Positions 14,289 through 30,489 are shown, counted from the stretch's first letter. The stretch is 32,000 bases of DNA from Nitrososphaerota archaeon (GCA_026712925.1 JAPOPJ010000240.1:1-32000), one strand, 5' to 3'. Program-made: numbers and translations. The notes: generated by a model from the letters alone, not told the origin.

Positions 14289-14297
14289 TTTAGAGTG

Positions 14298-14336: not shown

Positions 14337-14405
14337 AATGCACCAGCAGGTTTAGTTATCATACCTCAGAGTATGACTGTTTAGCGAGTTGTTTTAGCAT
14401 CTAAT

Positions 14406-14756: not shown

Positions 14757-14768
14757 TTCAACTTTGAC

Positions 14769-15733: not shown

Positions 15734-16345
15734 TTGGCACGTAGAAAAGGTAGAGTAAAGGACAAGTGGCGAGAAAAACGCTGGATAACAATATACGCTT
15801 CTGAGGCATTTAACAACATCCCATTATCATACGTCCCAATTACTGATGATGAAAAGGCATCTGGAAGAGTACTAGAAATGACGCTACATGATATAATAAA
15901 GGGCGATCCCTCAAATCACCAATTCAAGCTATACTTTCAGATTGACAAGATTCAAGAAGACAAGGCAACATCCATCTTCAAACGCTGGGAATACTCTAAA
16001 GAGTATCTGCGGAGTCTGGTCAGACGTGGCTCCTCAAAGATCACCTTTATCATTGATGCTAAAACAAAAGACGGGTACATATTTAGAATTAAAATAATTG
16101 CGCTCACACACAGACAGCTCAACACATCAAGAAAGCATGCGTTACGACTTATTGCAAAAGATATTATCGAAAAGACTGTTCCTGAAATGACCATCCATCA
16201 GTTTGTGCAAGCTGTATGTTATAGTAAAATCAACTCTGATATTATGGCTGCATTCAAAAAGGTAATCAGGGTAAGACATGTAGGCCTAGAGAAGGTAAAA
16301 CTTATCAGAACAGCAGAAAAAGAGATTGCCTTGTTAGAAGCATAA
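15734..16345 (+). CDS. rps3ae: 30S ribosomal protein eS1 (S3Ae)
   Basis: (M)ARRKGRVKDKWREKRWITIYASEAFNN... is typical of S3Ae. The start is TTG, directly after an in-frame TGA. Confidence 0.9.
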   Translation: MARRKGRVKDKWREKRWITIYASEAFNNIPLSYVPITDDEKASGRVLEMTLHDIIKGDPSNHQFKLYFQIDKIQEDKATSIFKRWEYSKEYLRSLVRRGSSKITFIIDAKTKDGYIFRIKIIALTHRQLNTSRKHALRLIAKDIIEKTVPEMTIHQFVQAVCYSKINSDIMAAFKKVIRVRHVGLEKVKLIRTAEKEIALLEA

Positions 16346-16351
16346 TCGCTC

Positions 16352-16777
16352 ATGGCAGGCGCGCTAGAAATTACAATAGACATCATAATTCATGCCACCG
16401 AAGTCAGCTCAAAATTTCTTGATGTCTTTGAAGAGTCATTTGGCGTGCCTCGAGAAAAATTCTCAGCAGTACAGTCCACAGGATACTATGATAATATCAT
16501 AACTATTCAAAGTGCAAGACTGCAAAAGAGTTCTGCACATACCTTTCTAGAGATACTTTTTAAAAGACTAAGTAAATCGCAAAAGGATATGATATCTGAG
16601 GAATTTGACAAAAGACTGTCAGGATCAAAGTTTCATCTTAGACTGGGAAAACAAGAGTTTGTTACAGGTACACTAGCCTTTAAGGAAAATGATGCAATAA
16701 GACTCAAGATACACACTCCCATATATAACAAAAAGGATGCTAATAGAATATTCAAGGAATTGTTCCAACTAGATTAA
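16352..16777 (+). CDS. Conserved archaeal protein, possibly of the COG1325 RNA-binding/exosome-associated family
   Basis: 141 aa. The N-terminal IIIHATEVSSKF resembles the HPTED-type N-terminal motif of that family. It follows rps3ae. Confidence 0.35.
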   Translation: MAGALEITIDIIIHATEVSSKFLDVFEESFGVPREKFSAVQSTGYYDNIITIQSARLQKSSAHTFLEILFKRLSKSQKDMISEEFDKRLSGSKFHLRLGKQEFVTGTLAFKENDAIRLKIHTPIYNKKDANRIFKELFQLD

Positions 16778-16896
16778 ATAGAAACAAGTCCGAATATAAT
16801 CCGGGAATGAGGAGATAACAGCCGCTCCAGTCTGAGCTAAAGCCATGAGGACGCCGCGACGAACCGACCCAAAATATCTAACTAATATAATATGAC

Positions 16897-17085
16897 TTGT
16901 CAGTCCCACTTTATCATCACATTGTGTTGACCCACTATTGTTCACCCACTATTGTCCACCCATGTTATCTGCCCGTGTTGTCCATCTGTGTTGTTCATCC
17001 ATATCATGACACTGTTGGCCCACTATCATCCATCCGTATTATCCATCGTGTTGTCTGCCCATATCACACCACCACATTGTTTTAA
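16897..17085. repeat. Degenerate array of 13-14-bp units (consensus about CCCAYTRTTGTYCA, roughly 12 units), G-poor on the plus strand
   Basis: CCCACTATTGTTCA CCCACTATTGTCCA CCCATGTTATCTG CCCGTGTTGTCCA TCTGTGTTGTTCA ..., read directly. Confidence 0.75.
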
Positions 17086-17101
17086 ATACAGATGTACGGG
17101 G

Positions 17102-18568
17102 ATGTTTATTGTGTCAGACTATGACGTTATAGTTGCAGGTGGTGGCCTTACAGGGACAATCGTGGCGCAAGCAGTAGCACATTATTCCAATCAAAATCTT
17201 AAAGTGCTCTCAATTGACAGAAATCCTGCCATATTTCCGGGAAGAAAGTCAACAGGTGGATGGACATGCGGGGATGCATGCTCAAAAGAAGCAGTGGACT
17301 ATATGTCTGAGAGAATAAAGGTACAGTGGACCAAACCCGAAATAGAGCACGATGTAAAGGGCGTTATGGCATTTTCACCTGATAGAAAGACTGCAATACC
17401 ATTTGATGGTGCAGGGTATATGTTAAACAGACAAAAGCTCCCAGAAATTCAAAACCAGAGAGCACAAAATATGGGAGTAGAGTTTGACTTTGAGATAAAC
17501 CTCATGGGACTCATCTATGAAGGAGAGCAGGTGACAGGAGTCAAGGGAATTGACAACAAGACAAAGCAACCATACAAAAAGACTGCCAAGGTAGTGGTGG
17601 ACTGTACTGGTGTTACATCTATGCTTAGAAACCAGCTTCAAAACTCTACAAAAGTAGAGAGAAAGATAGACCGACGAGACTTGGAATCCACAGGTAGATA
17701 CATCATGTATTTTGATAAAGGGGAAAATGATCTTAGTGAATTTGATTCAGACTATTGTATAATTCATCTAGACCAAGATATAGCTCCGGGCGGTTACGGA
17801 TGGGTATTTCCCAAAGGAGATGACAAAGTAAACATTGGACTCGGAGTTGAAAAGTCACTCCTAGACAAACGAAACAAAAGATTGGGCAAAAAAGACAACG
17901 TAGAATCCCTCATGAAAGAATATCTATACAGAAATAAAGCAATCAAAAATGCAAAGCTATCAGAGGATCCAGAAGACACTAGCAATAACTCTGGAATATT
18001 CCAAGTCTCAGTTAGGAGACAAAACGACTGCCTAGTATCTGGCGGATACATGATGGTTGGTGACTCTGCATGGATGCCAAAACCAATTGATGCAGGAGGA
18101 ATAGGACCTGCCCTAATAGCAGGAACTATTGCAGGTGAGAATATAGTACGGGCAATAGAGGCAAATGATACATCTGAGAAAAGCCTGTGGCAGTACAACA
18201 TTGACTTTATCAGAGAGTATGGCTACAAGACTGCCGGTTTAGAACTATTCAGGAGACTTGTCCAGACCCTAACAAATGATCAGATAAGTTACGGGATGAA
18301 ACACTTTCTTGGAAACTTGGATGTAGAATCAATCAGCAAGGGTGAGCATCCTGACTTTTCAGGATTAGGAAAGGTTGGCATGATAATAAGAGGAATAATG
18401 AACCGTACTGTTGCAGACGGGCTCAAGTACACATCCACACAGAACAAGTGGCTTGTAAACCACTATAACAACTATCCTAGGGAACCAGCAGGCTTTGAGG
18501 AGTGGAACAAGAAACTCCACAAAAACCTAGAGGAGTCATTTGTTAAAATAGAGTCATTTGGAAGCTAG
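17102..18568 (+). CDS. FAD-dependent oxidoreductase of the geranylgeranyl reductase family
   Basis: MFIVSDYDVIVAGGGLTGT (GxGxxG) and GDSAWMPKPIDAGGIG. The ORF-track start at 16952 runs through the repeat array and is rejected. Confidence 0.8.
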   Translation: MFIVSDYDVIVAGGGLTGTIVAQAVAHYSNQNLKVLSIDRNPAIFPGRKSTGGWTCGDACSKEAVDYMSERIKVQWTKPEIEHDVKGVMAFSPDRKTAIPFDGAGYMLNRQKLPEIQNQRAQNMGVEFDFEINLMGLIYEGEQVTGVKGIDNKTKQPYKKTAKVVVDCTGVTSMLRNQLQNSTKVERKIDRRDLESTGRYIMYFDKGENDLSEFDSDYCIIHLDQDIAPGGYGWVFPKGDDKVNIGLGVEKSLLDKRNKRLGKKDNVESLMKEYLYRNKAIKNAKLSEDPEDTSNNSGIFQVSVRRQNDCLVSGGYMMVGDSAWMPKPIDAGGIGPALIAGTIAGENIVRAIEANDTSEKSLWQYNIDFIREYGYKTAGLELFRRLVQTLTNDQISYGMKHFLGNLDVESISKGEHPDFSGLGKVGMIIRGIMNRTVADGLKYTSTQNKWLVNHYNNYPREPAGFEEWNKKLHKNLEESFVKIESFGS

Positions 18569-18660
18569 ATGGCTCTAGTGTGGCATATGCTTGTGTATAT
18601 TAAAAATTCAAAGTCTTGTGTGGCACATATTAATAAAGTTGGAATTAAGGTGATACATTG

Positions 18661-19452
18661 ATGGAGATGCAGTACCTTGACTGGAACAACTCTGTCCCCA
18701 TTTTAGGCAAGGCCTACGATGCAGGGCTGTTTGCAATTATAATAGGTCCAAAAGGGACTGGAAAGACAACCCTAGTAAGGCAATTTGCACAGAGTATGAA
18801 TGCGCGTCTAGAATCTGTCAACTTTAGTCTCAGAACTAGAGAAAGTCATCTAGTTGGAACAAAGACACTTCATGATGGGACTGTAAGTTTTGGTGAAGGA
18901 TTGTTAGTAAGGTCCATGAGAGAAGGTGGCATTTTATACCTAGATGAGATAAACTCAGCAGAAGCAGACGTTTTGTTAAGACTTGATGAAGCCCTAGATG
19001 ACCGAAGACAGATTGTCCTAAAAGAATCATCAGGTGAAGTGATAAAGGCAAAAGAAAACTGGTTTGTAGTGGCTACAATAAACCCACTCACACACAGCGG
19101 TACAAAAGAACTTCCACCACAGATACTCAGCAGATTCCCAGTCCGAATCAGCCTAGAATATCCACCTGAAGATATAGAGATGGAGATTGTAAAAAAATAC
19201 GTATCAGGGAGTCATGATGAGGACATACGACAAGGAGTAAAGCTTGCAAACATGCTAAGAAAGGCAGCAGCTGTTGAAGAACTCTTTTACTCTCCTAGCA
19301 TGCGAGAGACTATTGCATTTGGCAGGCTTTTAGATAAAAGTATGCAGGCAAAAGAAGCCGCAGGAATTGTATTTGGAAATGTGTACACACAATGGGGAAG
19401 TATAGAATATCAAAAGGTAAGTGACATCATTACATCAATGTTTGGAAGCTAG
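18661..19452 (+). CDS. AAA+ ATPase of the MoxR/CbbQ/NorQ family
   Basis: Walker A GPKGTGKT and Walker B ILYLDEIN. The SD-like AAGGTGAT lies 8 nt upstream of the ATG. Confidence 0.85.
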   Translation: MEMQYLDWNNSVPILGKAYDAGLFAIIIGPKGTGKTTLVRQFAQSMNARLESVNFSLRTRESHLVGTKTLHDGTVSFGEGLLVRSMREGGILYLDEINSAEADVLLRLDEALDDRRQIVLKESSGEVIKAKENWFVVATINPLTHSGTKELPPQILSRFPVRISLEYPPEDIEMEIVKKYVSGSHDEDIRQGVKLANMLRKAAAVEELFYSPSMRETIAFGRLLDKSMQAKEAAGIVFGNVYTQWGSIEYQKVSDIITSMFGS

Positions 19453-21015
19453 ATGCAATCCTCAGAGATAAAAAGCGAGCACTTGCTTGATATTGCATCA
19501 TTTCTTGTAAGGCGCTGGTCTGAAAAAGATGGTGTAATAGTAGAATTTTCAGACAAGGTAGATACGAGAACCAGACTTGCAGAAAATAAAGTCATACTGA
19601 CACCGCTTGAAAAGATGGCAGGGAGTAGCTTTCAAAGATATAGACAATTCAGAACATCACTTTGGTACGAGGCCATGAGGATAAAATTTTGCAAAAAAAT
19701 ACTAAGCAACGACCACGCATTTGGGTTTATTCTCAATACAATGGAGACTAGAAGAGTAGAAAAACTTGGACGAAATATATGGAAAGGTATGGATGAAGAA
19801 ATTATATTCAACTATTCTTACATGTTAGTTTCAAGGCCACAGCTGCACTCGGTATATGGTAAAGCAAGAATTGTAGAAGCATTTTATCAGTATTTCATGT
19901 TTGGTGCATTCAAAGGCGAAATACAGTCAAGTCATTTTGAGAGAATAAAAAAAGCAGATGCCCTTGCAAAGAGAATAGTAGATGATGCAGTCCGATACGA
20001 ACATGGTACGGAATGGCTAGAAAAAAAAATTAGTGAGATAATAAAAATACTAGACATAGACTCGCTTCTCACAATCCCAGTCTCGCTTCCATTTATGAAG
20101 GCAGGTATGGCACTAACAGAGCAAGAGTTGCTAAAATTCCTCAAGATAGTCTCAAGGAATAAGGAAGGTGATTTTGGAAGAGTCGATCCAGGTGCAGTAC
20201 TAAATGGGAGTGACATATATGATGAGTACAGGGTTTTGCTTGATGAGAATCAGAAAAACGACAACAAGGGCATACTACCAGAGGCAGTAGGGGTAAAAGT
20301 GCCTGCTACAAGAAATGTTGATGAATCTGCAATATATGATATATCACTGATAAACAGTCTAAAGACTAAATTCAGAGAGTGGGCTATGGGATGGAAAGAA
20401 CAGCATGGTAGAAATGGTGATGAGTTTGATGAGGAGAGTCATATAGAAGGACACGAGCCGTTTTTTACTGACATAAAAAAATCAGTAAAAACCAGAATAG
20501 TCATTTTGCTTGACCACTCATCTAGTATTTCATCAGATGCACTAGAATACAAAAAGGCAACACTTGCATTATGTGAAGTGCTTGCATTTTTAAAAGTAAA
20601 ATTTGCAGTGTATGCATTTAGCACCGAGAACAGATCAACAGTATGCTGGCAGATAAAGCCAGATAATATAAAATGGAATTATCTGTCTGCAAAAAAACTT
20701 GCACAGATTGTTGCAAATGGCTCAACTCCGCTAGCAGAAGTGTATGATAAAATGTTTCCAATATTGCAATCAAAGAGGCCCGATGTATTTTTGACACTCA
20801 CAGACGGGGAGCCCTCAGACCCTAGTGCCGTGCGCACAATGACAAAAGCATTAAGAAGTATGGGGATAAAGATGGTAGCATTGGGACTTGGCCCAAACCC
20901 TGTAAGATCGACTGCCATTGCAGGGAACTTGGGCCGTCTAGGATATGAAAAGACACTTGCAGTAAGCAGGCTAAAAGACATTCCCAGTAAAGTGATTAGA
21001 ATTTTGGATGCATGA
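19453..21015 (+). CDS. von Willebrand factor A domain protein (NorD/CbbO-like partner of the AAA+ ATPase)
   Basis: C-terminal VWA domain with the MIDAS motif LLDHSSSIS (DxSxS) and TDGEPSD. Its ATG directly abuts the upstream TAG. Confidence 0.8.
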   Translation: MQSSEIKSEHLLDIASFLVRRWSEKDGVIVEFSDKVDTRTRLAENKVILTPLEKMAGSSFQRYRQFRTSLWYEAMRIKFCKKILSNDHAFGFILNTMETRRVEKLGRNIWKGMDEEIIFNYSYMLVSRPQLHSVYGKARIVEAFYQYFMFGAFKGEIQSSHFERIKKADALAKRIVDDAVRYEHGTEWLEKKISEIIKILDIDSLLTIPVSLPFMKAGMALTEQELLKFLKIVSRNKEGDFGRVDPGAVLNGSDIYDEYRVLLDENQKNDNKGILPEAVGVKVPATRNVDESAIYDISLINSLKTKFREWAMGWKEQHGRNGDEFDEESHIEGHEPFFTDIKKSVKTRIVILLDHSSSISSDALEYKKATLALCEVLAFLKVKFAVYAFSTENRSTVCWQIKPDNIKWNYLSAKKLAQIVANGSTPLAEVYDKMFPILQSKRPDVFLTLTDGEPSDPSAVRTMTKALRSMGIKMVALGLGPNPVRSTAIAGNLGRLGYEKTLAVSRLKDIPSKVIRILDA

Positions 21016-21175
21016 TTTCCAGCATGATAATATCACATCCTCCAAATTCATTATTTTGATAAACTTTTAATCAAATATTTGTATGAAATAACTGATAACC
21101 ACATTTACAATTAATCGCAATACATGTGATTTGATTTTTTAATTTTGGTGGATGTTTTTCTAATCTGTAAAATCT

Positions 21176-22615
21176 TTAAGCATTCATACCCATACCTTTA
21201 GAAAATATTGGATAAAGTAAATCCAAATCAGATTCAACAAGTAAGCTGAAATCAAGATTTTCTATCAAATGATCACAAATAATCTGTCTTGCATTAGATA
21301 GTGGTTTTTGTACAGTTGATACACCATGCAAATTTTGCTCTTTCTCAGATAGTCTAGATGCCACATAATTTGCCAAAACATCTATACGAATATTTTCATT
21401 TTTTGATATTTTTTGAAGATTTTTTTTAATCTGTGATATATCCCAGTTAGAATTTTCTAGAGATTTTTTAGTTAATTTGTGTGAGTCTTTTCCCAATAAT
21501 ACAAAATGTGCAAATTGACTGGCAATTCGCTCTTCTTCATCTTGAGAATTTAGTGATTTTGTAATATTTTCAGTAATTTGGCTTGTTCCTTGTGATATAT
21601 GATAAAATTCATAAAGTAAATTAAACATCCAGCGTGCTTCAGAATCTGTTTTTTGTGTGAGAATAATGATACTTCTACTCTTATCTATAAAGCAAGCCGC
21701 ATGAAAGGAAATAGTATCTAATACCAAAACAGGGATGCCCCAACTCCAAACATAACGTAAGATAGTATCAAATGTTATTTTTCCAAAATTTGAAAGAATC
21801 TGTTCTCTCACAATATATGGATCATCTGGAATATTCTTATTTGCTTTAATCTTTGTTGCTTTAGATACAAGTTGTGCTATATGATGAGCATAAATAGTAT
21901 GGATGCCAAGTTTTTTCTTGTTTGTGTTGCTAGAAATTTTGTATTTTACTTTGGTAAGAGGTGTTGTATTTAACACAAGAGGTTTTGATTTAAAAATTGA
22001 TTCTGGTTTTATTCCAAAAACCTTTCCTATATAATAAGAGGCCTGAAGACATAAAAGATCAGGTGAGATATCTTTATCATGAAATCGTGCTGCAAGTCTA
22101 GGCGGTAAGAGTCTGTGCATAATAAAGTCGGAATCAATACCCACAGAGTTCATTTTTTTGAAAAATTTTTTTAAAGAGAAATTAGCTATTGGAACTCCCA
22201 CATGTTTTTCTATTTTTAAGTTTAGAGCATCAGCAATTTCTTTAATTTTAGATATACTGGCAGATTCATATTCAGTTGCTTCATATCTTTGAATTTGCTG
22301 TTCTGGTAAGCTTACCATTTTTCCCAATTCTTTTTGGCTAAGATTTAGTGAAATTCTAGCTTTGATTAATGTGAAAGGTAATTCATCAATAGAATACAGT
22401 TCTGTTATTGGAATGTTGCCCAAAGTCAAATCTTCATATTCCTTTACTTCTCTTTGTAGATCTAAAAGTTGACTTTTTAATGCAGCTTTTTGTAGTGTTA
22501 GTAATGCACTAGTTCCACCTTTTACCTCATCAGTTTCAAGATCATTTAACGCGGTAGAAAATTTTGCTAGTTGTGATTTGGTAATCTTGTACTGCCTACT
22601 ATTTTTAATCATCAT
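21176..22615 (-). CDS. Fusion protein: coiled-coil N-terminus, XRE-type HTH and an ImmA/IrrE (DUF955, COG2856)-like domain with a degenerate HExxH (YEFYH)
   Basis: RQYKITKSQLAKFSTALNDLE..; HTH LSQKELGKMVSLPEQQIQRYEATEYESASISKIKEIADAL; GIPVLVLD..SIIILTQKTDSEARWMFNLLYEFYHI and EEERIASQFAHFVLLG (the E..AN.FA..LL pattern). The gene is very AT-rich. Confidence 0.65.
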   Translation of the reverse strand: MMIKNSRQYKITKSQLAKFSTALNDLETDEVKGGTSALLTLQKAALKSQLLDLQREVKEYEDLTLGNIPITELYSIDELPFTLIKARISLNLSQKELGKMVSLPEQQIQRYEATEYESASISKIKEIADALNLKIEKHVGVPIANFSLKKFFKKMNSVGIDSDFIMHRLLPPRLAARFHDKDISPDLLCLQASYYIGKVFGIKPESIFKSKPLVLNTTPLTKVKYKISSNTNKKKLGIHTIYAHHIAQLVSKATKIKANKNIPDDPYIVREQILSNFGKITFDTILRYVWSWGIPVLVLDTISFHAACFIDKSRSIIILTQKTDSEARWMFNLLYEFYHISQGTSQITENITKSLNSQDEEERIASQFAHFVLLGKDSHKLTKKSLENSNWDISQIKKNLQKISKNENIRIDVLANYVASRLSEKEQNLHGVSTVQKPLSNARQIICDHLIENLDFSLLVESDLDLLYPIFSKGMGMNA

Positions 22616-23032
22616 AATTCCCCCATATTGATCAAAACAATGCCTTTAATATTTCCAGATTCTCTATCATGTTAATAGAAATTCAGAATCATTTCACCAC
22701 TTCCACTGAGATACATTGAGAAAAATTCTCCATAATATTTTACTTTTTGAGATTTTCTTCCATTTTCAAAGCGATTTAAAACAGGGTCGGCTCGCCCACA
22801 AATTCGAGGCTTTTCCTAGTTTGTTTCTCTGATGTAGGTATAGTTTGTCTGAATATATCATTGGAATAATCTAGATTGCCCAGTGCTTACAGAATGAGTT
22901 TTGATGTAATATAGCATATGATCGTATTGACTCTGTTGGGAATGTTGAGGATTTACCAAAAGCATCGAATTTGTGGGAGAACCCAATGTCGATAACACCT
23001 TAATACTTAAAATCAATACATATCATGAACAT

Positions 23033-24439
23033 ATGGCCACACTACAGAGTATGGATATACGAAGCTTGAGAACCGAAATGGGAATCAAACAAATGGATCT
23101 TGCAAAAAAAGCCCAAGTGTCTCCATCTGATCTTAGCAAATGTGAAAGAGGACTAGTCCCACCAGACATGAGACTAATCACGGTAGTATCAAAAATCCTT
23201 TCAGTTAACCCAGATACGATACTAAAGGCTCACAAAATGATGCTGGATAATCCGATATCTGGAGAGGGATACGTAACGAAAAAGACTAGTGAATTTTTCA
23301 CAATTAAACGAATAAAAACTCCAAACAAGGAAGCAATTCCAATACTAGATCTTTTTTGCGGAACGGGTGGTTTTTCCAATGGGTTTGAGCAGACCGAAAA
23401 ATTCCAAGTAGTATCTGGATTAGACATGATGCCTGATAGAATCCATACGTTTTCGCGCAACCACCCTGCAGCAAAAGCCTACTGTCACGACATTACGAGA
23501 TTTTCAATTGATAAATTTAATGATGATGTTATACCGCAGGTGATTATTGGCGGTCCACCGTGTCAAGGATTTTCTTCAATTAGACCGTTTCGTTCCGTCA
23601 ACGAAAACGATCCTCGTAACAACCTTTTCACCAATTTTGCGTTCGCGGTAAAAAAACTGAGACCGGAGTGGTTTGTTTTGGAAAATGTGGTCGGGCTGGC
23701 AACACACCAAAAGGGCAAAACAGTCACCAAACTTCAAACCATGTTTGAGGAAATGGGATACACCGTTTCATGGTCCATACTAAACGCGGTACATTTTGGC
23801 TTGCCCCAGCGACGGGAACGATTTATCATGGTGGGAAATATTGACGGACATAATTTTGAATTTCCGATGCCAACACATCATTTCAATGGTAAAAGTATGG
23901 CAAAGAGCAACATATCATACACAAATGTCGTACAAAGATTGAAACCCGCAGTGACTGTAATGGATGCTATTGGAGATCTTCCAAATGTGGATGCTGGAGG
24001 GTCTGTTTCAAGATACAATTCGCCCCTCACACCATACCAGAAATCAATGAGACGTGATGGGATAGACCTTAAAATGCATTCTGCAACTGCACACACACAA
24101 CGGATGCTGAAAATAATCGCACATTCAGGCTCAAACAGACATTCAATCCCCAAGGAAATGATATCAAGTGGGTTTAGTTCGTCTTATAGTCGATTGGAAC
24201 CAGACGAGCCGAGTGTTACCATAACAGTCAACTTTGGATTTCCAGGATCCAACAAATGCATACACCCATACCAAAATCGAGCACTTACACCTAGAGAAGC
24301 TGCCCGGTTACAGGGATTTCACGACATGTATGAATTTGTCGGGACTAGATCTGAAATATGCAAGCAAATCGGCAACGCCGTTCCCCCCATACTAGGCAGG
24401 GTCATCGGAGAGGCACTGTTCAGACAGATGAGGGTATGA
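23033..24439 (+). CDS. DNA (cytosine-5) methyltransferase with an N-terminal XRE/C-protein-like HTH
   Basis: Motif I LDLFCGTGGFSNGF, IV GGPPCQGFS, VI FVLENVVGL, VIII LPQRRERF and X GNAVPPIL. The N-terminal HTH is IKQMDLAKKAQVSPSDLSKCERG. The ORF is open from GTG 22973, and the first ATG is at 23033. Confidence 0.88.
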   Translation: MATLQSMDIRSLRTEMGIKQMDLAKKAQVSPSDLSKCERGLVPPDMRLITVVSKILSVNPDTILKAHKMMLDNPISGEGYVTKKTSEFFTIKRIKTPNKEAIPILDLFCGTGGFSNGFEQTEKFQVVSGLDMMPDRIHTFSRNHPAAKAYCHDITRFSIDKFNDDVIPQVIIGGPPCQGFSSIRPFRSVNENDPRNNLFTNFAFAVKKLRPEWFVLENVVGLATHQKGKTVTKLQTMFEEMGYTVSWSILNAVHFGLPQRRERFIMVGNIDGHNFEFPMPTHHFNGKSMAKSNISYTNVVQRLKPAVTVMDAIGDLPNVDAGGSVSRYNSPLTPYQKSMRRDGIDLKMHSATAHTQRMLKIIAHSGSNRHSIPKEMISSGFSSSYSRLEPDEPSVTITVNFGFPGSNKCIHPYQNRALTPREAARLQGFHDMYEFVGTRSEICKQIGNAVPPILGRVIGEALFRQMRV

Positions 24440-24586
24440 TTACGGCTTGAAACATTCGTCAATGAATACAACTTTTATCTTATCCCACCCACACACTCAT
24501 CCGCACATACACACGGCTAATAGGTATCGAATTAGAGGATAAATCCTCAGGGTAAATTTTAATTTAAGTGAATTACAGGATAAATC

Positions 24587-26131
24587 ATGGTTAATTCAGG
24601 GGATATTGATACCAAACTGTTAGAAAAGTTTGAGCAAGAGATATGGAGTAAAGTTCCCCATATAGAGAAAGGTGGAAATATGATTGTAAATCCAACACCG
24701 CTAACTGACCTGACAAAAGACCTTGAAAACTGTGCAAGAGATATCTATAAAATTGACCTACAAATGGCAGATGCAAAAGTGTATGGCAAATTTGACTCTG
24801 TGTTGCCCAGTGGCTCAATAAAAGTCAGGGCGGCAGTACACATAATTCATGATGCCATACTATCAGGAAAACTAAAGAGCGGTCAGACAGTAGTAGAGGC
24901 AACATCAGGTAACTTTGGAATAGCACTCGGATTACTCTCAAGACTAGGCATTAATGTGGTGGCACTTGTTTCAAGAAAGCTTCAAGAAGGCGTATTCAAG
25001 GAGCTCAAAGATGAAAACATTCGCACAATGGACCTAGATATGGAGATATGCCCAGCACCTGGCATGGAAAACAAAGTAGACGAGCTTGCCGCAAAAGCGA
25101 CAGTTGAAAATGTCAAAACCCAACTTGCAGGACTTGGGTTTGATACCACAATTTTTGAGAAGAATCGCCAAGAAGCAGAAAAATTACTTGGAAGACAAGA
25201 CATCATAAACTTTGCAGTATTTCTATCAAAGATATATGATGTGTTTTGTCCTGCACAATATGACAACGAGCTCAATGTAGATGCTCACAGGACAATAACA
25301 GCGGCAGAGACAGACCAACAGCTACACAAACATGATGACTCACTTGAAGAATATAGAATTGTATGCGCGTTTGGTACAGGAGGCACATCAGGCGGAATTA
25401 GTAAATACATGTCTGAAAAGTATGGTAAAAAATCCGTGCATGTAGTGTTCCCACCTGCAGGCCAAGACGTTGCAGGTATTAGAACCAAGGCAAACGCATC
25501 AGGTCTAAAGATGTACAATCCAGATTCTTATGTAGCGACACACGAGATAGACTATGAAAAGGCAAAACTGTTACTCAAATATTTTGTAGAAAAGGGTCAT
25601 GACATTGGCGAGAGTACAGCCCTAGCACTATACTGCACAATGATGATGATACATTCTGGTAGAGCAAAAAAGTTTGTAGTGATTGTGGCTGATGGGATTG
25701 AAAAGTACAAAAAGAATTTTGAGCAAATTTCAAAGGAGGCTGTCCCAATGCGAATATCTCTTGAGGATGCAGCAGTAAATAATTATGACAAGATAATATG
25801 GGTTCACACCCAATACACACCAAAAGAAGAGGGAATAGAAATGATTGCAAGATCGCTTGGAGTCGACAAGTCAAAGATAGCAGTTCCAAAAGCAGGCACT
25901 ATCAATGAATTACTTAACACGCAAAAAGTTCCAGAGGAGCTTAGCAAGGAGTTAGATAGCTCAGAAGGCAAGACCCTACTAGTATGCATGGCAGGAAACA
26001 CATCATTTATGACAGCACAAGTGCTTGCAGGAAAGGGCATAACAACTCAAAGCCTCAACGGTGGAATTACCGATCTACCTGAGGGAAGGGGTAAGAATCC
26101 GGGCCAGTACATCCAGATAGCAAGGGAGTAG
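24587..26131 (+). CDS. Fold-type II PLP-dependent enzyme (cysteine synthase/CBS-like) fused to a C-terminal rhodanese domain
   Basis: PSGSIKVRAA (PLP lysine region), EATSGNFGIALG and FGTGGTSGG. The C-terminal LLVCMAGNTSFMTAQVL..GGI is a rhodanese-type Cys loop. Confidence 0.7.
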   Translation: MVNSGDIDTKLLEKFEQEIWSKVPHIEKGGNMIVNPTPLTDLTKDLENCARDIYKIDLQMADAKVYGKFDSVLPSGSIKVRAAVHIIHDAILSGKLKSGQTVVEATSGNFGIALGLLSRLGINVVALVSRKLQEGVFKELKDENIRTMDLDMEICPAPGMENKVDELAAKATVENVKTQLAGLGFDTTIFEKNRQEAEKLLGRQDIINFAVFLSKIYDVFCPAQYDNELNVDAHRTITAAETDQQLHKHDDSLEEYRIVCAFGTGGTSGGISKYMSEKYGKKSVHVVFPPAGQDVAGIRTKANASGLKMYNPDSYVATHEIDYEKAKLLLKYFVEKGHDIGESTALALYCTMMMIHSGRAKKFVVIVADGIEKYKKNFEQISKEAVPMRISLEDAAVNNYDKIIWVHTQYTPKEEGIEMIARSLGVDKSKIAVPKAGTINELLNTQKVPEELSKELDSSEGKTLLVCMAGNTSFMTAQVLAGKGITTQSLNGGITDLPEGRGKNPGQYIQIARE

Positions 26132-26134
26132 ACA

Positions 26135-26590
26135 TTGAAATGCCTTTCAGTATCACAACCATTTGCTGATTTAATAATATCAGGTAGAAAAAAGATAGAA
26201 TTGCGCAGCTGGAACACAAAATTCCGCGGCGAGTTTCTGATACACGCCCCACTGAAAATAAGAACGCATGATGTAAAGCGATTAAAGATGAAAAGTGAAT
26301 TTGTTACGGGTGCAATAGTCGGAAAGGCAGAAATATTTGATGTCAAAAAATATGAAACGGTATCAGAATACAGCAAAGATGCACACCTTCACTTTGCCGC
26401 AAAAAAATTCAGCGATATTAGGTATGGTTTTATGCTAAAAAGAGCAAAGATATTCAGGATTCCCATCCCATACAAAGGAAGGCTGGGATTTTTTGAGGCA
26501 GTTTTACCAGAATCAAATATCAAAGAATCAGATATTGTGACAGATATAATTGATGAAGAATATAGGTATCAGTGGATAGGACACCACTAG
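26135..26590 (+). CDS. ASCH (PUA-like) domain protein
   Basis: LSVSQPFADLIISGRKKIELRSWNTKFRGEFLIHA matches the ASCH N-terminal pattern. The start is TTG. Confidence 0.7.
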   Translation: MKCLSVSQPFADLIISGRKKIELRSWNTKFRGEFLIHAPLKIRTHDVKRLKMKSEFVTGAIVGKAEIFDVKKYETVSEYSKDAHLHFAAKKFSDIRYGFMLKRAKIFRIPIPYKGRLGFFEAVLPESNIKESDIVTDIIDEEYRYQWIGHH

Positions 26591-26871
26591 ATAGGGTATG
26601 ACTAGATAGAATATGACTAGGCCATATACACAAAATACACCATTTTGTAAATTGGTGTGTGAAATAATGCCCAGTCTACATTTAGGTTAAAACGACGTAT
26701 AATCACCAGGTATAATCACTAGGTGCACCGCATGTATGCCCGTACAAAGCGCAAACTAGACCATAATCCCGCACCACATATCTGAAAAGTTGGCTCATTT
26801 GGGGAATATGGGCATAAACAAATTTGTGTGGCCTAGTGCTAAATGAGATAGTATTTAAAAAAATTGAGTAG

Positions 26872-26895
26872 TATATATAAAAGGACTATATAAAG
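26872..26895 (+). promoter_or_regulatory. Two adjacent TATA boxes upstream of tbp (TATATATAAAA and CTATATAAAG)
   Basis: Read directly. They lie about 26 nt upstream of TTG 26905 and ATG 26923 respectively. Confidence 0.5.
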
Positions 26896-26922
26896 CTCCT
26901 CGAATTGCCTCAGACAAAGCCC

Positions 26923-27468
26923 ATGGTTAGTGTAGAAAACGTTGTTGCATCTGCATCAGTAGAACAAAAGATTGATCTCAATGACATTACAAAAAAGTTT
27001 CCAGATACAGAATACCATCCAGAACAATTCCCAGGACTCGTATTCCGACTAAGCAATCCCAGAACTGCAACACTCATCTTTAGAACTGGAAAAATGGTGT
27101 GTACTGGGGCAAAATCCGAAGACATGGCAATCAAGGCCGTAAATACAGTAGTGCAAAAGCTGCGAAAGGGAAAGATCAAGATAAAAAATGACGCAGTAAT
27201 TACGGTACAAAATATTGTTGCGGCCATAAACTTGGGTGGAAAAATTCACCTAGAAAAGGCCGCAAGAACGCTTCCAAGGAGCATGTATGAACCAGAGCAG
27301 TTTCCAGGACTGATTCACAGGATGCTAGACCCAAAGACGGTAATCTTGCTGTTTGCCTCTGGAAAACTAGTCTGCACTGGAGCAAAAAAAGAATCAGATG
27401 TCTATCGCTCTGTATATAACCTGCATGCCCTACTTGAAGAAAAAAACCTCATGATATACGACCAGTGA
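26923..27468 (+). CDS. tbp: TATA-box binding protein
   Basis: Two internal repeats: EQFPGLVFRL..LIFRTGKMVCTGAKS and EQFPGLIHRM..LLFASGKLVCTGAKK. TTG at 26905 is an alternative start. Confidence 0.95.
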   Translation: MVSVENVVASASVEQKIDLNDITKKFPDTEYHPEQFPGLVFRLSNPRTATLIFRTGKMVCTGAKSEDMAIKAVNTVVQKLRKGKIKIKNDAVITVQNIVAAINLGGKIHLEKAARTLPRSMYEPEQFPGLIHRMLDPKTVILLFASGKLVCTGAKKESDVYRSVYNLHALLEEKNLMIYDQ

Positions 27469-27495
27469 GGCTGTATTACGCACCACAGTATCATC

Positions 27496-27594
27496 TAGTA
27501 TGATTCTAGTATGATTCTAGTATGATTCTAGTATGATTCTAGTATGATTCTAGTATGATTCTAGTATGATTCTAGTATGATTCTAGTATGATTT
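27496..27594. repeat. Tandem repeat TAGTATGATTC x9 (11 bp; last copy imperfect)
   Basis: Copies start at 27496, 27507, ... 27584, in the convergent spacer after tbp. A solitary GATTCTAGTATG occurs at 28433-28444. Confidence 0.95.
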
Positions 27595-27667
27595 CAAAAC
27601 TGCAGGCAGAATGTTCAAGTGATATTACCAGAATCGATATTACCAGAGTATAATAGAATCAGATGTA

Positions 27668-28354
27668 TTATCCTGTAAATGCGAAAGTAAAAGATGCTGA
27701 CTCTGAGCTACTCTCTGCTGTAATGGTAAATGTGCCAGACTCTTCCCACCCTGCACCACCGGCAATTGTAAGTGTAGAGTATCGCCCATCATCCCTTACA
27801 GGTATAGTCTCAGTCCAAGAGACTTGATTGTTCGGGTCAGTTATGGAGATGTTTACATTATCCAAGGTAGGTGAAATGCCGCTGATAGAGATTAGATCGC
27901 CCTTTTGGTACGACTGGAGATCTGCTCGGATTGAGAGAACATCAGGCTCGATTATGGGTGTATCAACAGGTAGTGCCGTATCATCAGGCTGTGAGCTCAT
28001 CGAGAGTGCTGCAGAGACCACAATTGCAAAGGCCACAACTAGAAATATTATCATCACTTTTTTGTTTTTTCCAGCAGACTCTGAGGCAGGAGTCGGTTTA
28101 ACTACCACCGTCCCGGTACTTTGAGGCGATGGTGGAATTTCCACATCAGGCGAAGAGATTGTGGGAGTTTTTGGTACCTTGACTTGTTGCACTCTTGAGA
28201 GATGTTTTTCTACCAACCTTTTTACATAATTACGTTCATAATTGCTAATTACCTCATCATGCTCACAGGCCCTCAAGATTTGCTTGAGGATTCGCTCATC
28301 ACCCATTTTCTTCTCTAATAGTTCCTTTACATCATCAGCAAGTAAGTCTGCCAT
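27668..28354 (-). CDS. Hypothetical single-pass membrane protein: cytoplasmic helical N-terminus, Pro-rich linker, TM segment and an extracellular beta-rich domain
   Basis: TM segment VMIIFLVVAFAIVVSAALSM. No catalytic motif was recognised. Confidence 0.55.
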   Translation of the reverse strand: MADLLADDVKELLEKKMGDERILKQILRACEHDEVISNYERNYVKRLVEKHLSRVQQVKVPKTPTISSPDVEIPPSPQSTGTVVVKPTPASESAGKNKKVMIIFLVVAFAIVVSAALSMSSQPDDTALPVDTPIIEPDVLSIRADLQSYQKGDLISISGISPTLDNVNISITDPNNQVSWTETIPVRDDGRYSTLTIAGGAGWEESGTFTITAESSSESASFTFAFTG

Positions 28355-28995
28355 TACTGCCTTGTTATAAAGACGGATTATTTATGGAATTACATTGAGC
28401 ATGTGATTGTGTCAGTGTGGCTGTGTAGTGGATGATTCTAGTATGTGAGTGTTCATAACTTGCAGTCAGATACCAACATGTATCTCTGTTGCAAGCATGA
28501 TACAAGTCATTTGGCCCACCTGACAGCATAAAAGCCTGCCACACCTACCTGTAAAACCACAAGACCACACGACTTTGTATCTGCTACAAATGACAAATAG
28601 AGGCAAATCTGACTACACATTACACTATATTGCAGTGATTTTACAAATTCAAAACATTTTGCTAGTTTTTTGACTTTGCATGCCGGGCATGTAGTTAATG
28701 GTGTATTTTATGCAGACATGGCACCAGCAGATGTCACGGCATGTCAAAATCTGTCTTGCATTGCTAAATCTAGAGCCTAGTTTGTCATCTGAGATGGTTG
28801 TGTTGAGCTAGAGATTCAATCTTGATATGGTCTCGAATTTGGAAAAAATATGTAGAAAAGTTATCAGATGATAATATTTTCAAAATATGCATCAATTCAG
28901 TCTTTAATGCCACATCCCAAAGACTGTCATCTGTAATATTACTCACAAAACCACACTACAGAACAATTACCAAGATGCAAGCCCATACAGGAGTG

Positions 28996-29003
28996 TTTTT
29001 AAA
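28996..29003 (+). promoter_or_regulatory. TATA box (TTTTTAAA) about 26 nt upstream of the P-II ATG
   Basis: Sequence and spacing read directly. Confidence 0.4.
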
Positions 29004-29025
29004 CCATTACAAGATAGAATATTAA

Positions 29026-29367
29026 ATGAAACGGATCGAAGCAACTATCCAATTCAACAAAACAGGAGCTGTATCCAATGCGATCAACGACTTGGTAGGC
29101 GGCTTTACCATCCTAGAGGGAAACGGTAGAGGTTCTGGTGCAAGACAAACAATTAGGTCAAGCAGAGGAACAGGGACTTTTGTTGCAGAATACAACAAGG
29201 TAGCCATAGTCTCAACAATAGTCGATGATTCCAAGGCAGATGCCGTGATTGTAGCAATATCAGAGGCAGCATTTACTGGAAACGGAGGCGATGGCATTAT
29301 TGTGACTAGTAACATAGATGAAGTCACAAACATCGCGTCAAAAAAGAGTGGTACCGAAGCCCTCTAA
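29026..29367 (+). CDS. P-II (GlnB/GlnK family) signal-transduction protein with a divergent T-loop
   Basis: 113 aa: MKRIEATIQ...GFTILEGNGRGSG...VAIVSTIVDDSKADAVIVAISEAAFTGNGGDGIIVTSNIDEVTNI follows the P-II pattern. Confidence 0.8.
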   Translation: MKRIEATIQFNKTGAVSNAINDLVGGFTILEGNGRGSGARQTIRSSRGTGTFVAEYNKVAIVSTIVDDSKADAVIVAISEAAFTGNGGDGIIVTSNIDEVTNIASKKSGTEAL

Positions 29368-30448: not shown

Positions 30449-30489
30449 AATGTAATGGATCGTGAACAGATACCTTATTTGTGCAAGTA

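What the first reader, a model, noticed from the sequence alone, without database searches (positions are those of the whole stretch)
21016..24586. AT-rich islet: HTH/ImmA-IrrE-like fusion with a degenerate metal site, divergent from an HTH-fused C5 methyltransferase with no visible endonuclease
Composition changes sharply right after the norD-like stop. A hand count gives 13 G+C in 21421-21480, against 28 in 7141-7200 within amoC.

The 479-aa minus-strand gene combines an antitoxin-like coiled-coil N-terminus, an XRE HTH, an unassigned middle region of about 150 aa, and an ImmA/IrrE-type domain. In that domain the first histidine of HExxH is tyrosine (LLYEFYHI), while the downstream E..A..FA..LL motif is retained.

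Across a spacer of about 400 bp it faces a C5 methyltransferase that carries its own C-protein-like HTH and has a noticeably higher GC than its neighbour. I see no restriction endonuclease, integrase or toxin.

Three readings are possible:
- a remnant of a mobile-element immunity switch (ImmR/ImmA logic);
- an R-M-like system whose nuclease is hidden in the unassigned part of the 479-aa protein;
- a new methylation-coupled regulatory or defence pair.
Basis: partly seen in the sequence, partly recalled or inferred. Interest (0 to 1): 0.7.

Follow-up and report, generated by a model that had tools for sequence, protein, structure and literature searches.

The report
Debris of two unrelated defence modules
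The AT-rich islet is a strain-specific insertion holding the decaying leftovers of two unrelated mobile modules, an orphaned repressor-protease gene and a restriction-modification system that has lost its nuclease, so it is not a new paired system.

Summary
Window 21016-24586 is an insertion: in 51 of 59 relatives the norD-like and PLP genes lie 42-121 bp apart, and 0 of 80 carry either islet gene.

The 479-aa gene belongs to a family found at 563 or more loci. That family sits in a conserved operon: DUF6932, XRE-HTH/M78, DUF4186, radical SAM, MTase-like, ASCH, kinase. None of 80 such loci has a Dcm nearby.

In the window both operon neighbours are pseudogene stumps: DUF6932 at 22612-22797 and DUF4186 at 21041-21160, each with an in-frame stop. 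HExxH is intact in 113 of 117 family members; H335Y is a local defect. Between the window and a 95.6 %-identical sister strain, dN/dS is 0.50 for this gene against 0.01-0.14 for its neighbours, and the sister copy carries Q444*. Its model is helical and IrrE/CapP-like, with no nuclease fold.

The HTH-Dcm is the methylase of a type II R-M system. All six other contexts have a convergent ~200-aa partner with a PD...ExK motif and a NaeI/EcoRV-like fold. The window keeps only that partner's last 17 codons (24440-24493). The methylase is intact and under purifying selection, so it is a recently orphaned methylase.

The parts
21016..24586 (.). Strain-specific insertion between the norD-like (VWA) gene and the PLP-dependent enzyme gene
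   Evidence: In 51 of 59 metagenomic relatives that hold both genes, the PLP gene starts 42-121 bp after the norD-like stop. None of 80 relatives has a homologue of either islet gene. One sister strain, 95.6 % identical (L081), shares the insertion.
21041..21160 (-). Stub of a DUF4186 gene (codons 9-48 only, in-frame stop at 21071-21073): a pseudogene
   Evidence: tblastn with the DUF4186 protein of the closest intact operon (L089) gives 47.5 % identity over 40 aa, E 4e-11. The L001 protein gives 48 %. The remainder of the gene is missing, because the norD-like stop lies at 21015.
21176..22615 (-). 'geneA': 479-aa XRE-HTH / extended M78 (ImmA/IrrE-type) fusion. It comprises an N-terminal helical hairpin (aa 6-64, nt 22424-22600), an HTH (aa 76-136, nt 22208-22390) and an M78-containing module (aa 147-468, nt 21212-22177). 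The probable real start is the second ATG, at 22612.
   Evidence: Pfam, NCBIfam and PADLOC scans. Family of at least 135 proteins and at least 563 loci. AF2 model with pLDDT 85.5. Foldseek matches to IrrE, PprI and CapP at probability 1.00. phrog_18577 matched end to end. dN/dS 0.50 against the sister strain.
21599..21613 (-). Degenerate metal site YEFYH (H335Y)
   Evidence: Translation. In the family, position 335 is His in 113 of 117 members, H339 is present in 117 of 117, and E336 and E362 are each present in 115 of 117. Tyr occurs only in the window copy, its ortholog P0001, P0004 and P0020.
22612..22797 (-). DUF6932 ('C1') pseudogene. Only the C-terminal ~60 codons remain, with an in-frame TAA at 22672-22674. 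Its stop codon overlaps the geneA start (ATGA), as in intact operons.
   Evidence: tblastn with 98 C1 queries; the best is 54 % identity, E 1e-15. Translation. The sister strain keeps residues ~15-141 with the same stop codon. Intact C1 matches PF22014 at E 1e-36.
22789..22983 (.). 195-bp MITE-like element with 26-nt imperfect terminal inverted repeats. It lies exactly at the breakpoints relative to the sister strain.
   Evidence: Inverted repeat at 22789-22814 / 22958-22983, 88 % complementary. The alignment with L081 breaks at 22788 and resumes at 22981. L081 instead has 783 bp that hold more of C1 and an rve_3 transposase fragment.
23033..24439 (+). HTH-fused C5 cytosine methyltransferase, 468 aa (the ORF is open from a GTG at 22973). 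Motifs: FCGTGG 23354-23371, PPCQ 23555-23566, ENV 23681-23689, QRRER 23807-23821, GNAVPP 24371-24388.
   Evidence: PF00145 E 2e-66 and TIGR00675 E 9e-60, plus HTH_3/HTH_31. PADLOC MTase_II E 4e-96. Motif positions. dN/dS 0.11, significantly below neutral (p 7e-15).
24440..24493 (-). Last 17 codons plus stop (CGWDKIKVVFIDECFKP*) of the cognate type II restriction endonuclease gene. The rest was lost in a ~1.1-kb deletion.
   Evidence: tblastn of the L081 R protein: residues 184-200, 76 % identity. Sequence and translation. L081 has the full 200-aa gene abutting the Dcm stop.

Best explanation
The 3.57-kb islet is a strain-specific insertion. It holds the juxtaposed, decaying remains of two unrelated mobile modules, not a functional divergent pair.

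(1) The AT-rich left part (21016-22797).
- It is a fragment of a widespread, horizontally mobile operon: DUF6932, XRE-HTH/M78 fusion, DUF4186, radical SAM, MTase-like, ASCH, P-loop kinase.
- Only the XRE-M78 gene survives as an open reading frame.
- Its translationally coupled upstream partner (DUF6932) is truncated at the 5' end and carries a nonsense codon.
- The downstream DUF4186 gene is reduced to 40 codons.
- Inferred by analogy: in intact systems the fusion protein probably works like RosmerTA RmrA, ImmR-ImmA or CapH-CapP. In that model the HTH represses the operon and/or the protein neutralises the DUF6932 partner, and the M78 peptidase releases that control on a trigger.
- In the window the gene has no partner left. 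It has lost the first zinc-binding histidine (H335Y) and is evolving under relaxed constraint, so it is a relic on the way to becoming a pseudogene.

(2) The right part (23033-24493).
- It is a type II restriction-modification system of the kind in which the C5 methylase carries its own N-terminal HTH (as in M.SsoII and M.Ecl18kI) and faces a convergent PD-(D/E)xK endonuclease.
- In this strain a ~1.1-kb deletion removed the endonuclease, leaving 17 codons.
- The methylase is intact and under purifying selection. Inferred: it still methylates its target, autoregulated through its HTH, as a newly orphaned methylase.

(3) Between the two parts lies transposon debris: a 195-bp TIR element here, and an rve transposase fragment in the sister strain. 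This probably brought the modules together and truncated DUF6932.
For: Insertion:
- In 51 of 59 relatives the norD-like and PLP genes are 42-121 bp apart.
- None of 80 relatives has either islet gene.

Operon origin of geneA:
- 79 of 80 genome loci have DUF6932 immediately upstream on the same strand.
- 69 of 80 also have the DUF4186 gene, mostly followed by radical SAM, MTase-like, ASCH and kinase genes.
- The closest intact relative (69 % identity) has the full operon.
- The operon also occurs on a conjugative plasmid.
- No Dcm lies within 10 kb in any of the 80 loci.

Remnants in the window:
- C1 tail, E 1e-15, with an in-frame stop shared by the sister strain.
- DUF4186 stub, E 4e-11, with an in-frame stop.

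Decay of geneA:
- His335 is present in 113 of 117 family members.
- dN/dS is 0.50 against 0.01-0.14 for seven neighbouring genes. Fisher p = 2e-7, and the ratio is not distinguishable from neutral (p = 0.056).
- The sister-strain ortholog has Q444*.
- The only locus among the 80 that lacks the first His (L075) also has a split C1.

No hidden enzyme in geneA:
- The AF2 model (pLDDT 85.5) is helical apart from the M78 sheet.
- Foldseek finds only IrrE, PprI, CapP and HTH proteins.
- phrog_18577 spans aa 147-468.

R-M origin of Dcm:
- A convergent R homologue (46-74 % identity) is present in all six other contexts.
- D94, E106 and K108 are invariant in 34 sequences.
- The AF2 model (pLDDT 91.9) hits NaeI (E 4e-5, probability 1.00), EcoRV, DpnI, SfiI and HincII.
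- A 17-codon R remnant remains in the window.
- Dcm dN/dS is 0.11.

HTH-fused C5 methylases that regulate their own R-M system are documented (PMC3978073, PMC2760811).
Against: - geneA is still a full-length ORF in the window, and its HTH and most conserved positions are intact: it deviates at only 3 of 56 positions conserved in at least 90 % of the family.
- Two other Tyr335 variants (P0004, P0020) still have an intact DUF6932 neighbour, so H335Y alone does not prove loss of function.
- Synonymous divergence in geneA (dS 0.037) is about four times lower than in the flanks. This is unexplained, and the dN/dS estimate rests on only 32 substitutions.
- The roles of DUF6932 as toxin or effector and of the fusion protein as repressor or antitoxin are inferred from analogy, not shown. 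A profile comparison of DUF6932 with a Pol-beta nucleotidyltransferase was not significant.
- No operator-like inverted repeat was found upstream of Dcm.
- Methylase activity is untested.
Confidence: 0.85

Rival explanations
1. geneA has been domesticated. It lost its partners and its peptidase activity but survives as a stand-alone XRE-type transcription factor (a pseudo-protease repressor) with a host function, possibly acting on the neighbouring promoter region.
For: - The ORF is intact at 479 aa, and the HTH and 53 of 56 highly conserved positions are retained.
- dN/dS of 0.50 is nominally below 1.
- Tyr335 variants with an intact DUF6932 neighbour exist elsewhere.
Against: - dN/dS is not significantly different from neutral (p 0.056) and is about 4-50 times higher than for the neighbours.
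- The sister-strain ortholog has a premature stop that removes the conserved C-terminus.
- The gene is absent from all 80 relatives.
- The flanking DNA is pseudogene and transposon debris.
Confidence: 0.1
2. One reading: a remnant of a prophage or ICE immunity switch (ImmR repressor / ImmA anti-repressor controlling an integrase or lytic genes).
For: - The XRE HTH plus M78/ImmA-type domain and the fold match to IrrE and CapP.
- The mobile, AT-rich, truncated context, with a transposase fragment in the sister strain.
Against: - The conserved neighbours in 79 of 80 loci are DUF6932 and a DUF4186/radical-SAM/ASCH/kinase set, not integrases or phage genes.
- Repressor and protease are fused in one protein.
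- There is no match in 50,697 phage records.
- The rve fragment in L081 lies on the Dcm side of the junction, and L082 also has an rve transposase upstream of its Dcm homologue.
Confidence: 0.05
3. One reading: the 479-aa protein and the HTH-Dcm form a new methylation-coupled regulatory or defence pair.
For: Divergent orientation across about 400 bp, with both proteins carrying HTH domains.
Against: - None of 80 geneA loci has a Dcm within 10 kb.
- None of five Dcm-homologue loci has a geneA or DUF6932 relative.
- The 'spacer' is a DUF6932 pseudogene plus a TIR element.
- The two genes have different composition (GC3 0.19 against 0.39) and opposite selection regimes.
Confidence: 0.03
4. One reading: an R-M-like system whose nuclease is hidden in the unassigned part of the 479-aa protein.
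For: About 150 aa had no Pfam assignment, and no endonuclease gene is visible in the window.
Against: - The region is confidently modelled as all-helical. The only sheet of three or more strands is the M78 sheet at 296-319.
- No nuclease appears among the Foldseek hits.
- Residues 147-468 are one conserved module shared with a phage protein family.
- The true endonuclease is a separate gene in the sister strain, and its 3' end is still present in the window.
Confidence: 0.01

Closest known systems
RosmerTA antitoxin RmrA and other XRE-COG2856 (ImmA/IrrE, M78) fusion proteins paired with diverse toxins (PMC10440598; PMC2701414)
   Same: - One polypeptide carries an N-terminal XRE HTH and an HExxH zincin domain.
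- In the family, a small unrelated partner gene lies immediately upstream ('toxin first') with overlapping stop and start codons.
- The module is mobile, patchily distributed and found on plasmids.
- There are weak PADLOC RmrA hits (E 3e-7 to 1e-8) and a spr1629 repressor/antitoxin hit.
   Different: - The HMM matches are partial (HTH only, or the HExxH region only) and far below the family cut-offs.
- The protein is larger (about 480 aa), with an extra N-terminal helical hairpin and a 320-aa extended module.
- The partner is DUF6932, which has not been described as a toxin.
- Most loci carry five additional enzyme genes.
- In the window the partner is a pseudogene and the first His is Tyr.
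Separate repressor/protease switches: DdrO-IrrE (Deinococcus), ImmR-ImmA (ICEBs1), CapH-CapP (CBASS regulators)
   Same: - The best structural matches of the model are CapP 7t5t, IrrE 3dti/3dte and PprI 8sln, all at probability 1.00.
- The logic is the same: an XRE repressor is controlled by an M78 peptidase placed upstream of an effector operon.
   Different: - Here repressor and peptidase are fused.
- There is no GAF-like sensor domain as in IrrE.
- No integrase or CBASS genes are nearby.
- TM-scores are modest (TMt 0.34-0.39), so the resemblance is at domain level only.
M.SsoII / M.Ecl18kI-type C5 methyltransferases with an N-terminal regulatory HTH region (PMC3978073, PMC2760811)
   Same: - An N-terminal HTH of about 70-100 aa is fused to a complete C5-MTase with motifs I, IV, VI, VIII and X.
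- It belongs to a two-gene type II R-M system.
   Different: - The gene order is convergent with abutting or overlapping 3' ends, whereas SsoII and Ecl18kI are divergent.
- No operator repeat was found.
- Some relatives additionally have a C-protein gene or a C-R fusion.
- In the window the R gene is deleted.
EcoRV/NaeI-class PD-(D/E)xK type II restriction endonucleases
   Same: - The 200-aa partner has invariant D94, E106 and K108 (plus E60 and P93 in at least 90 % of sequences).
- Its confident model matches NaeI, EcoRV, DpnI, SfiI and HincII.
   Different: - There is no detectable sequence similarity to any Pfam or NCBIfam family, and all homologues are annotated as hypothetical.
- The recognition site is unknown.
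- It is present only as a 17-codon remnant in the window.

Membership tests
Peptidase M78 / ImmA-IrrE (COG2856) metallopeptidase | HExxH zinc-binding motif | tested here: not met
   The window copy reads YEFYH at 21599-21613. The family as a whole meets the feature: H335 in 113 of 117 members and H339 in 117 of 117.
Peptidase M78 / ImmA-IrrE (COG2856) metallopeptidase | Downstream Glu as third metal ligand on the following helix | tested here: met
   E362 is retained (ERIASQFA). It is present in 115 of 117 family members and lies on helix 355-374 of the model.
Peptidase M78 / ImmA-IrrE (COG2856) metallopeptidase | Pfam PF06114 match above the gathering score | tested here: not met
   16.0 bits against a cut-off of 22, E 0.011. 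Many homologues do carry a precomputed PF06114 hit.
Peptidase M78 / ImmA-IrrE (COG2856) metallopeptidase | Zincin fold: a three-stranded sheet followed by the HExxH helix | tested here: met
   The AF2 model has strands at 296-298, 304-311 and 314-319, then helix 326-341. Foldseek gives probability 1.00 to IrrE, PprI and CapP.
RosmerTA (RmrT/RmrA) | RmrA: HTH + ImmA-type peptidase recognised by the PADLOC RmrA models | tested here: inconclusive
   Only partial hits, E 3e-7 to 5e-5, each covering either the HTH or aa 309-384.
RosmerTA (RmrT/RmrA) | An adjacent intact toxin gene in the same operon | tested here: not met
   In the window the upstream partner is a truncated pseudogene with a stop codon. 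In the family, DUF6932 is adjacent in 79 of 80 loci, but its toxicity is unknown.
RosmerTA (RmrT/RmrA) | Toxicity that is neutralised by the antitoxin, and phage defence | not testable with these tools
   This requires expression and phage-challenge assays.
ICE/prophage ImmR-ImmA immunity switch | Location next to integrase/excision or phage genes that it controls | tested here: not met
   The conserved neighbours are DUF6932, DUF4186, radical SAM, ASCH and kinase genes. There is no hit in the phage collection.
C5 cytosine DNA methyltransferase (PF00145 / TIGR00675) | Full-length profile match and catalytic motifs I (FxGxG), IV (PCQ), VI (ENV), VIII (QRR) and X (GNAVP) | tested here: met
   PF00145 E 2e-66 and TIGR00675 E 9e-60. 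All the motifs were located.
Type II R-M system with HTH-fused methylase (SsoII/Ecl18kI-like) | N-terminal HTH domain on the methylase | tested here: met
   HTH_3 E 7e-6 and HTH_31 E 6e-6, at aa 29-81 of the 488-aa ORF.
Type II R-M system with HTH-fused methylase (SsoII/Ecl18kI-like) | A cognate restriction endonuclease gene adjacent to the methylase | tested here: not met
   The window holds only a 17-codon remnant at 24440-24493. The feature is met in the sister strain and in five other contexts, where it has a NaeI/EcoRV-like fold.
Type II R-M system with HTH-fused methylase (SsoII/Ecl18kI-like) | An operator (inverted repeat) bound by the methylase HTH in the promoter region | tested here: inconclusive
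   No short inverted repeat was found in 22780-23060 with the settings used. Binding cannot be tested here.
DUF6932 (PF22014) | A full-length ~145-aa protein with the conserved DGSF...D.D core | tested here: not met
   The window keeps only residues ~83-141, so the core motif is gone. Intact relatives match PF22014 at E 1e-34 to 1e-36.

The most novel reading that the evidence does not exclude
The window copy itself is dead, but it is a fossil of a widespread operon that appears to be undescribed. The operon reads: DUF6932, ~480-aa XRE-HTH/M78 fusion, DUF4186, radical SAM (weakly viperin/QueE-like), DPPW methyltransferase-like, ASCH, and a VakA-like nucleotide kinase. It occurs at 563 or more loci across many bacterial phyla, Nitrosopumilus and Thorarchaeota, and also on conjugative plasmids. 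The most novel reading not excluded is that this is a new nucleotide-modifying anti-phage system, or a similar conflict system, gated by a Rosmer/CapH-CapP-like repressor-protease and a DUF6932 partner.
Probability: 0.3. Interest if true: 0.6.

Novelty: new member of a known kind. Interest (0 to 1): 0.25.

Why it matters
For this window the result is a clean-up. An apparently intriguing 'HTH-protease facing an HTH-methylase without a nuclease' turns out to be gene decay and chance juxtaposition inside a small variable insertion in an ammonia-oxidising archaeon.

It is still a tidy, datable example of two processes.
- How orphan methyltransferases arise: the sister strain still has the endonuclease, while this strain keeps 17 of its codons.
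- How an antitoxin/regulator-type gene lingers after its partners are lost.

The by-products may be more useful than the finding itself.
- A previously unannotated family of small NaeI/EcoRV-fold restriction endonucleases, linked to HTH-fused C5 methylases.
- A widespread uncharacterised seven-gene operon built around DUF6932 and an XRE-M78 fusion.

Tried and rejected
- A search for an operator-like inverted repeat upstream of Dcm found nothing.
- I tested whether DUF6932 is a minimal nucleotidyltransferase, as its GSF...D.D motif suggests. The profile search against PDB sequences found nothing, and hhalign against a Pol-beta NTase gave probability 0.07. The idea remains a motif-based guess only.
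- A literature search for DUF6932 returned no papers, and the four papers on DUF4186 were irrelevant.
- The phage collection had no match to geneA.
- I checked whether H335Y tracks loss of the downstream cargo genes. All ten of the 80 genome loci that lack the cargo genes but still have a first His keep HExxH intact, so there is no simple correlation. The only locus without the first His (L075) has a broken DUF6932.
- I considered that other inserts at the norD/PLP junction in relatives might be related mobile elements. They turned out to be native genes, rearrangements or small unrelated ORFs.
- The first tblastn placement of the DUF4186 stub (21053-21172, three stops) was superseded by a better frame (21041-21160, one stop).

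Full report
**1. Observation.**

- A 479-aa ORF lies on the minus strand at 21176-22615. An ORF on the plus strand runs from 22973 to 24439.
- GC falls to 27-31 % over 21001-22500, against about 40 % in the rest of the window.
- GC3 of the 479-aa gene ('geneA') is 0.19. Native neighbours have 0.33-0.36 and the methylase gene has 0.39.
- Pfam gives HTH_3 at aa 84-136 and a sub-threshold Peptidase_M78 match at aa 314-374 for geneA. For the second protein it gives HTH_3/HTH_31 plus DNA_methylase (E 2e-66).
- The degenerate motif YEFYH lies at 21599-21613, followed by ERIASQFAHFVLLG.
- Homologues of the methylase are about 468 aa long, so its real start is the ATG at 23033.

**2. The segment is an insertion.**

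I scanned metagenome contigs with the norD-like protein and obtained 80 relatives at 74-79 % identity.
- Of the 59 that also hold the PLP-enzyme gene, 51 have it starting 42-121 bp after the norD-like stop.
- None of the 80 encodes a relative of geneA or of the methylase.
- The few larger gaps at this junction hold native genes, rearrangements or small unrelated ORFs.
- One contig from a sister strain (L081, 95.6 % nucleotide identity over window 11305-30984) shares the insertion. It became the key comparator.

**3. geneA belongs to a large family with a different, conserved context.**

- At least 135 full-length homologues of about 470-490 aa were found.
- A scan of species-representative genomes found at least 563 encoding loci. 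These span Planctomycetota, Cyanobacteria, Acidobacteriota, Chloroflexota, Alpha- and Gammaproteobacteria, Nitrosopumilus and a Thorarchaeote.
- In the 80 loci retrieved, no relative of the window's methylase lies within 10 kb.
- Instead, 79 of 80 have a ~147-aa gene immediately upstream on the same strand, usually overlapping the geneA start by 4 nt.
- 69 of 80 also have the ~205-aa gene downstream, mostly followed by genes of ~340, ~430, ~175 and ~180 aa.
- Pfam identifies these as DUF6932 (E 1e-36), DUF4186, a radical SAM enzyme, a weak N6-MTase-like protein with a DPPW motif, ASCH and an AAA_18 kinase.
- PADLOC relates DUF6932 to the candidate-defence model PDC-M63A, the kinase to VakA, and the radical SAM enzyme weakly to viperin.
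- The closest intact relative of geneA (P0002, 69 %) sits in the full operon.
- The operon is also on a conjugative Tolypothrix plasmid, annotated only as hypothetical, XRE, DUF4186, ASCH and AAA proteins.
- About ten loci have only the DUF6932-geneA pair, so that pair is a self-standing core.

**4. In the window, geneA is flanked by the stumps of its operon partners.**

- tblastn with DUF6932 proteins hits window 22797..22615 on the minus strand. The match covers residues ~83-141 at 54 % identity (E 1e-15) and ends in the ATGA overlap with the geneA start, exactly as in intact operons.
- The reading frame carries an in-frame TAA at 22672-22674...ILNFY*HDRESG, against ...ILNFFQRDKESG in the intact protein.
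- The sister strain keeps residues ~15-141 with the same stop codon, so DUF6932 was already dead before the two strains split.
- Downstream of geneA, window 21160..21041 encodes residues 9-48 of the DUF4186 protein (47.5 % identity to L089, E 4e-11) with one in-frame stop. The rest is missing, because the norD-like stop lies at 21015.

**5. geneA itself is decaying.**

- In the family the metal site is intact. Position 335 is His in 113 of 117 members, H339 is present in 117 of 117, and E336 and E362 are each present in 115 of 117.
- Tyr335 occurs only in the window copy, its ortholog P0001, P0004 and P0020.
- Between the window and L081, geneA has 21 nonsynonymous and 11 synonymous differences, giving dN/dS 0.50. 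Seven neighbouring genes give 0.01-0.14.
- The contrast with the neighbours is significant (Fisher p 2e-7), and geneA is not distinguishable from neutral evolution (p 0.056).
- The L081 ortholog has a premature stop (Q444*) that removes the conserved C-terminus.
- The only one of the 80 genome loci lacking the first His (L075, LLQTLFH) also has a split DUF6932 gene.
- Caveats: the window ORF is still full length. P0004 and P0020 have Tyr335 with an intact DUF6932 neighbour. geneA's dS (0.037) is unexpectedly low compared with the flanks (0.135-0.17), which I could not explain.

**6. No nuclease is hidden in geneA.**

- The AlphaFold model built on 33 homologues has mean pLDDT 85.5 and pTM 0.77.
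- It shows an N-terminal two-helix hairpin (aa 6-64), the HTH (76-136), and then helices. The only β elements are one short lone strand (223-227) and the three-stranded M78 sheet (296-319), which precedes the YEFYH helix.
- The significant Foldseek hits against the PDB are IrrE, PprI, CapP and an M. tuberculosis XRE-M78 regulator, all at probability 0.97-1.00, plus XRE HTH proteins. No nuclease appears.
- Residues 147-468 match one phage protein family end to end (phrog_18577, E 7e-22). The 'unassigned' middle, the M78 core and the C-terminal helices therefore form one module.

**7. The methylase comes from a type II R-M system whose nuclease gene is deleted here.**

- In L081 a 200-aa gene abuts the methylase stop in convergent orientation.
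- Relative to L081, the window lacks about 1.1 kb there.
- The window retains only the last 17 codons, CGWDKIKVVFIDECFKP*, on the minus strand at 24440-24493.
- Homologues of this protein (46-74 % identity) lie convergent to, and abut or overlap, the 3' end of the methylase homologue in every other context examined: L082, L083, L084/85, L086/87 and L171. In one case a C-protein gene precedes it, and in another it is fused to an HTH.
- The family (36 proteins, all annotated as hypothetical) has invariant D94, E106 and K108, with E60 and P93 nearly invariant. This is a PD-(D/E)xK signature.
- Its model (pLDDT 91.9) matches NaeI (E 4e-5, probability 1.00, TMq 0.52), EcoRV, DpnI, SfiI and HincII, and nothing else significant.
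- The methylase has all the catalytic motifs and dN/dS 0.11, well below neutral (p 7e-15).
- HTH-fused C5 methylases that regulate their own R-M systems are known, for example M.SsoII and M.Ecl18kI (PMC3978073, PMC2760811).

**8. The junction between the two modules is transposon debris.**

- The window-specific segment 22789-22983 is bounded by 26-nt inverted repeats (88 % complementary), exactly at the breakpoints with L081.
- L081 instead has 783 bp there. These hold more of the DUF6932 gene and a 98-aa rve_3 integrase-core fragment.
- L082 also has an rve transposase just upstream of its methylase homologue.
- So the R-M cassette probably arrived with an IS element that truncated DUF6932 (inference).

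**9. Mechanism.**

Shown:
- the insertion;
- the operon origin of geneA;
- the pseudogene remnants;
- relaxed selection on geneA;
- deletion of the R gene;
- purifying selection on the methylase.

Inferred:
- In intact loci the XRE-M78 fusion probably acts as repressor and/or antitoxin for the DUF6932 partner and the downstream enzymes. The M78 peptidase would release that control on a trigger. This is by analogy with RosmerTA RmrA, ImmR/ImmA and CapH/CapP (PMC10440598, PMC2701414; fold match).
- In the window that circuit no longer exists.
- The methylase most likely still methylates its site and autoregulates through its HTH.

**10. Comparison, novelty and verdict.**

- geneA works like an XRE-COG2856 fusion. 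The window copy fails the HExxH and Pfam-threshold tests for M78, and the adjacent-toxin test for RosmerTA.
- The methylase is a member of the C5-MTase family and of the HTH-fused R-M class, but it lacks the adjacent nuclease.
- Nothing in the window is a new kind of system. It is a new, decayed member of known kinds.
- Interest is low for the window itself. The parent seven-gene operon and the small NaeI/EcoRV-fold endonuclease family are the leads worth following.

Noticed in passing
L005:9523-15358, L030:9561-15459, L089:152-4855, L172:5561-11501 (not in the window): A conserved seven-gene operon that appears to be undescribed: DUF6932, XRE-HTH/M78, DUF4186, radical SAM (weakly viperin/QueE-like), DPPW MTase-like, ASCH, and a VakA-like P-loop kinase. 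Relatives of its XRE-M78 gene occur at 563 or more loci across bacteria and archaea, and the operon is also on a conjugative plasmid. All products are annotated as hypothetical or generic proteins.
   Followed up: partly
Proteins P0049, P0055, P0056, P0066, P0068, P0071: Variants of the geneA family of about 650-665 aa carry an additional AAA_17/AAA_18 kinase-like domain. This suggests a functional link between the regulator and a nucleotide kinase.
   Followed up: no
window 21200-22700 compared with the flanks: Synonymous divergence from the sister strain is about four times lower in geneA (dS 0.037) than in the flanking native genes and the methylase gene (0.135-0.17). Recent recombination of the AT-rich segment between lineages, or a lower mutation rate in AT-rich DNA, might explain this. 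It remains unresolved.
   Followed up: partly
window 22789-22983 and window 2501-2585: A 195-bp element with 26-nt terminal inverted repeats (MITE-like) has only one copy in the window. Separately, window 2501-2585, which spans the start of the ORF 2524-3417, is 80 % identical to an 86-bp stretch just upstream of the methylase gene in the sister strain (L081). This may be a dispersed repeat or a shared promoter-type sequence.
   Followed up: partly
L082:2660-4101 and L083:2942-5830: The HTH-Dcm/R pairs of two relatives sit in defence-island-like contexts. These hold a second Dcm plus Vsr, a HATPase_c_3 protein, and several transposases (IS110, rve, DDE_Tnp_4).
   Followed up: no
P0263-P0276; L086:6408-7304; L084:6414-7456: In some relatives the endonuclease is fused to a C-protein-like HTH (about 300 aa), or is preceded by a separate C-protein gene, even though the methylase also carries an HTH. 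These systems would therefore have two HTH regulators in one R-M system.
   Followed up: no
L112:5174-5497, L133:8624-8947, L107/L137/L148 (junction between the norD-like and PLP genes): The same intergenic junction holds other material in some relatives: a 107-aa ORF with a hydrophobic, signal-peptide-like N-terminus, or about 3.3 kb of rearranged native genes (ASCH, P-II and others). This suggests a locally variable spot.
   Followed up: partly
window 26135-26590: The native ASCH-domain gene two genes downstream of the islet shares only its domain type with the ASCH gene of the parent operon (weak tblastn hits, E 0.003 or weaker). It is conserved in relatives that lack the islet, so the resemblance is coincidental.
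   Followed up: yes
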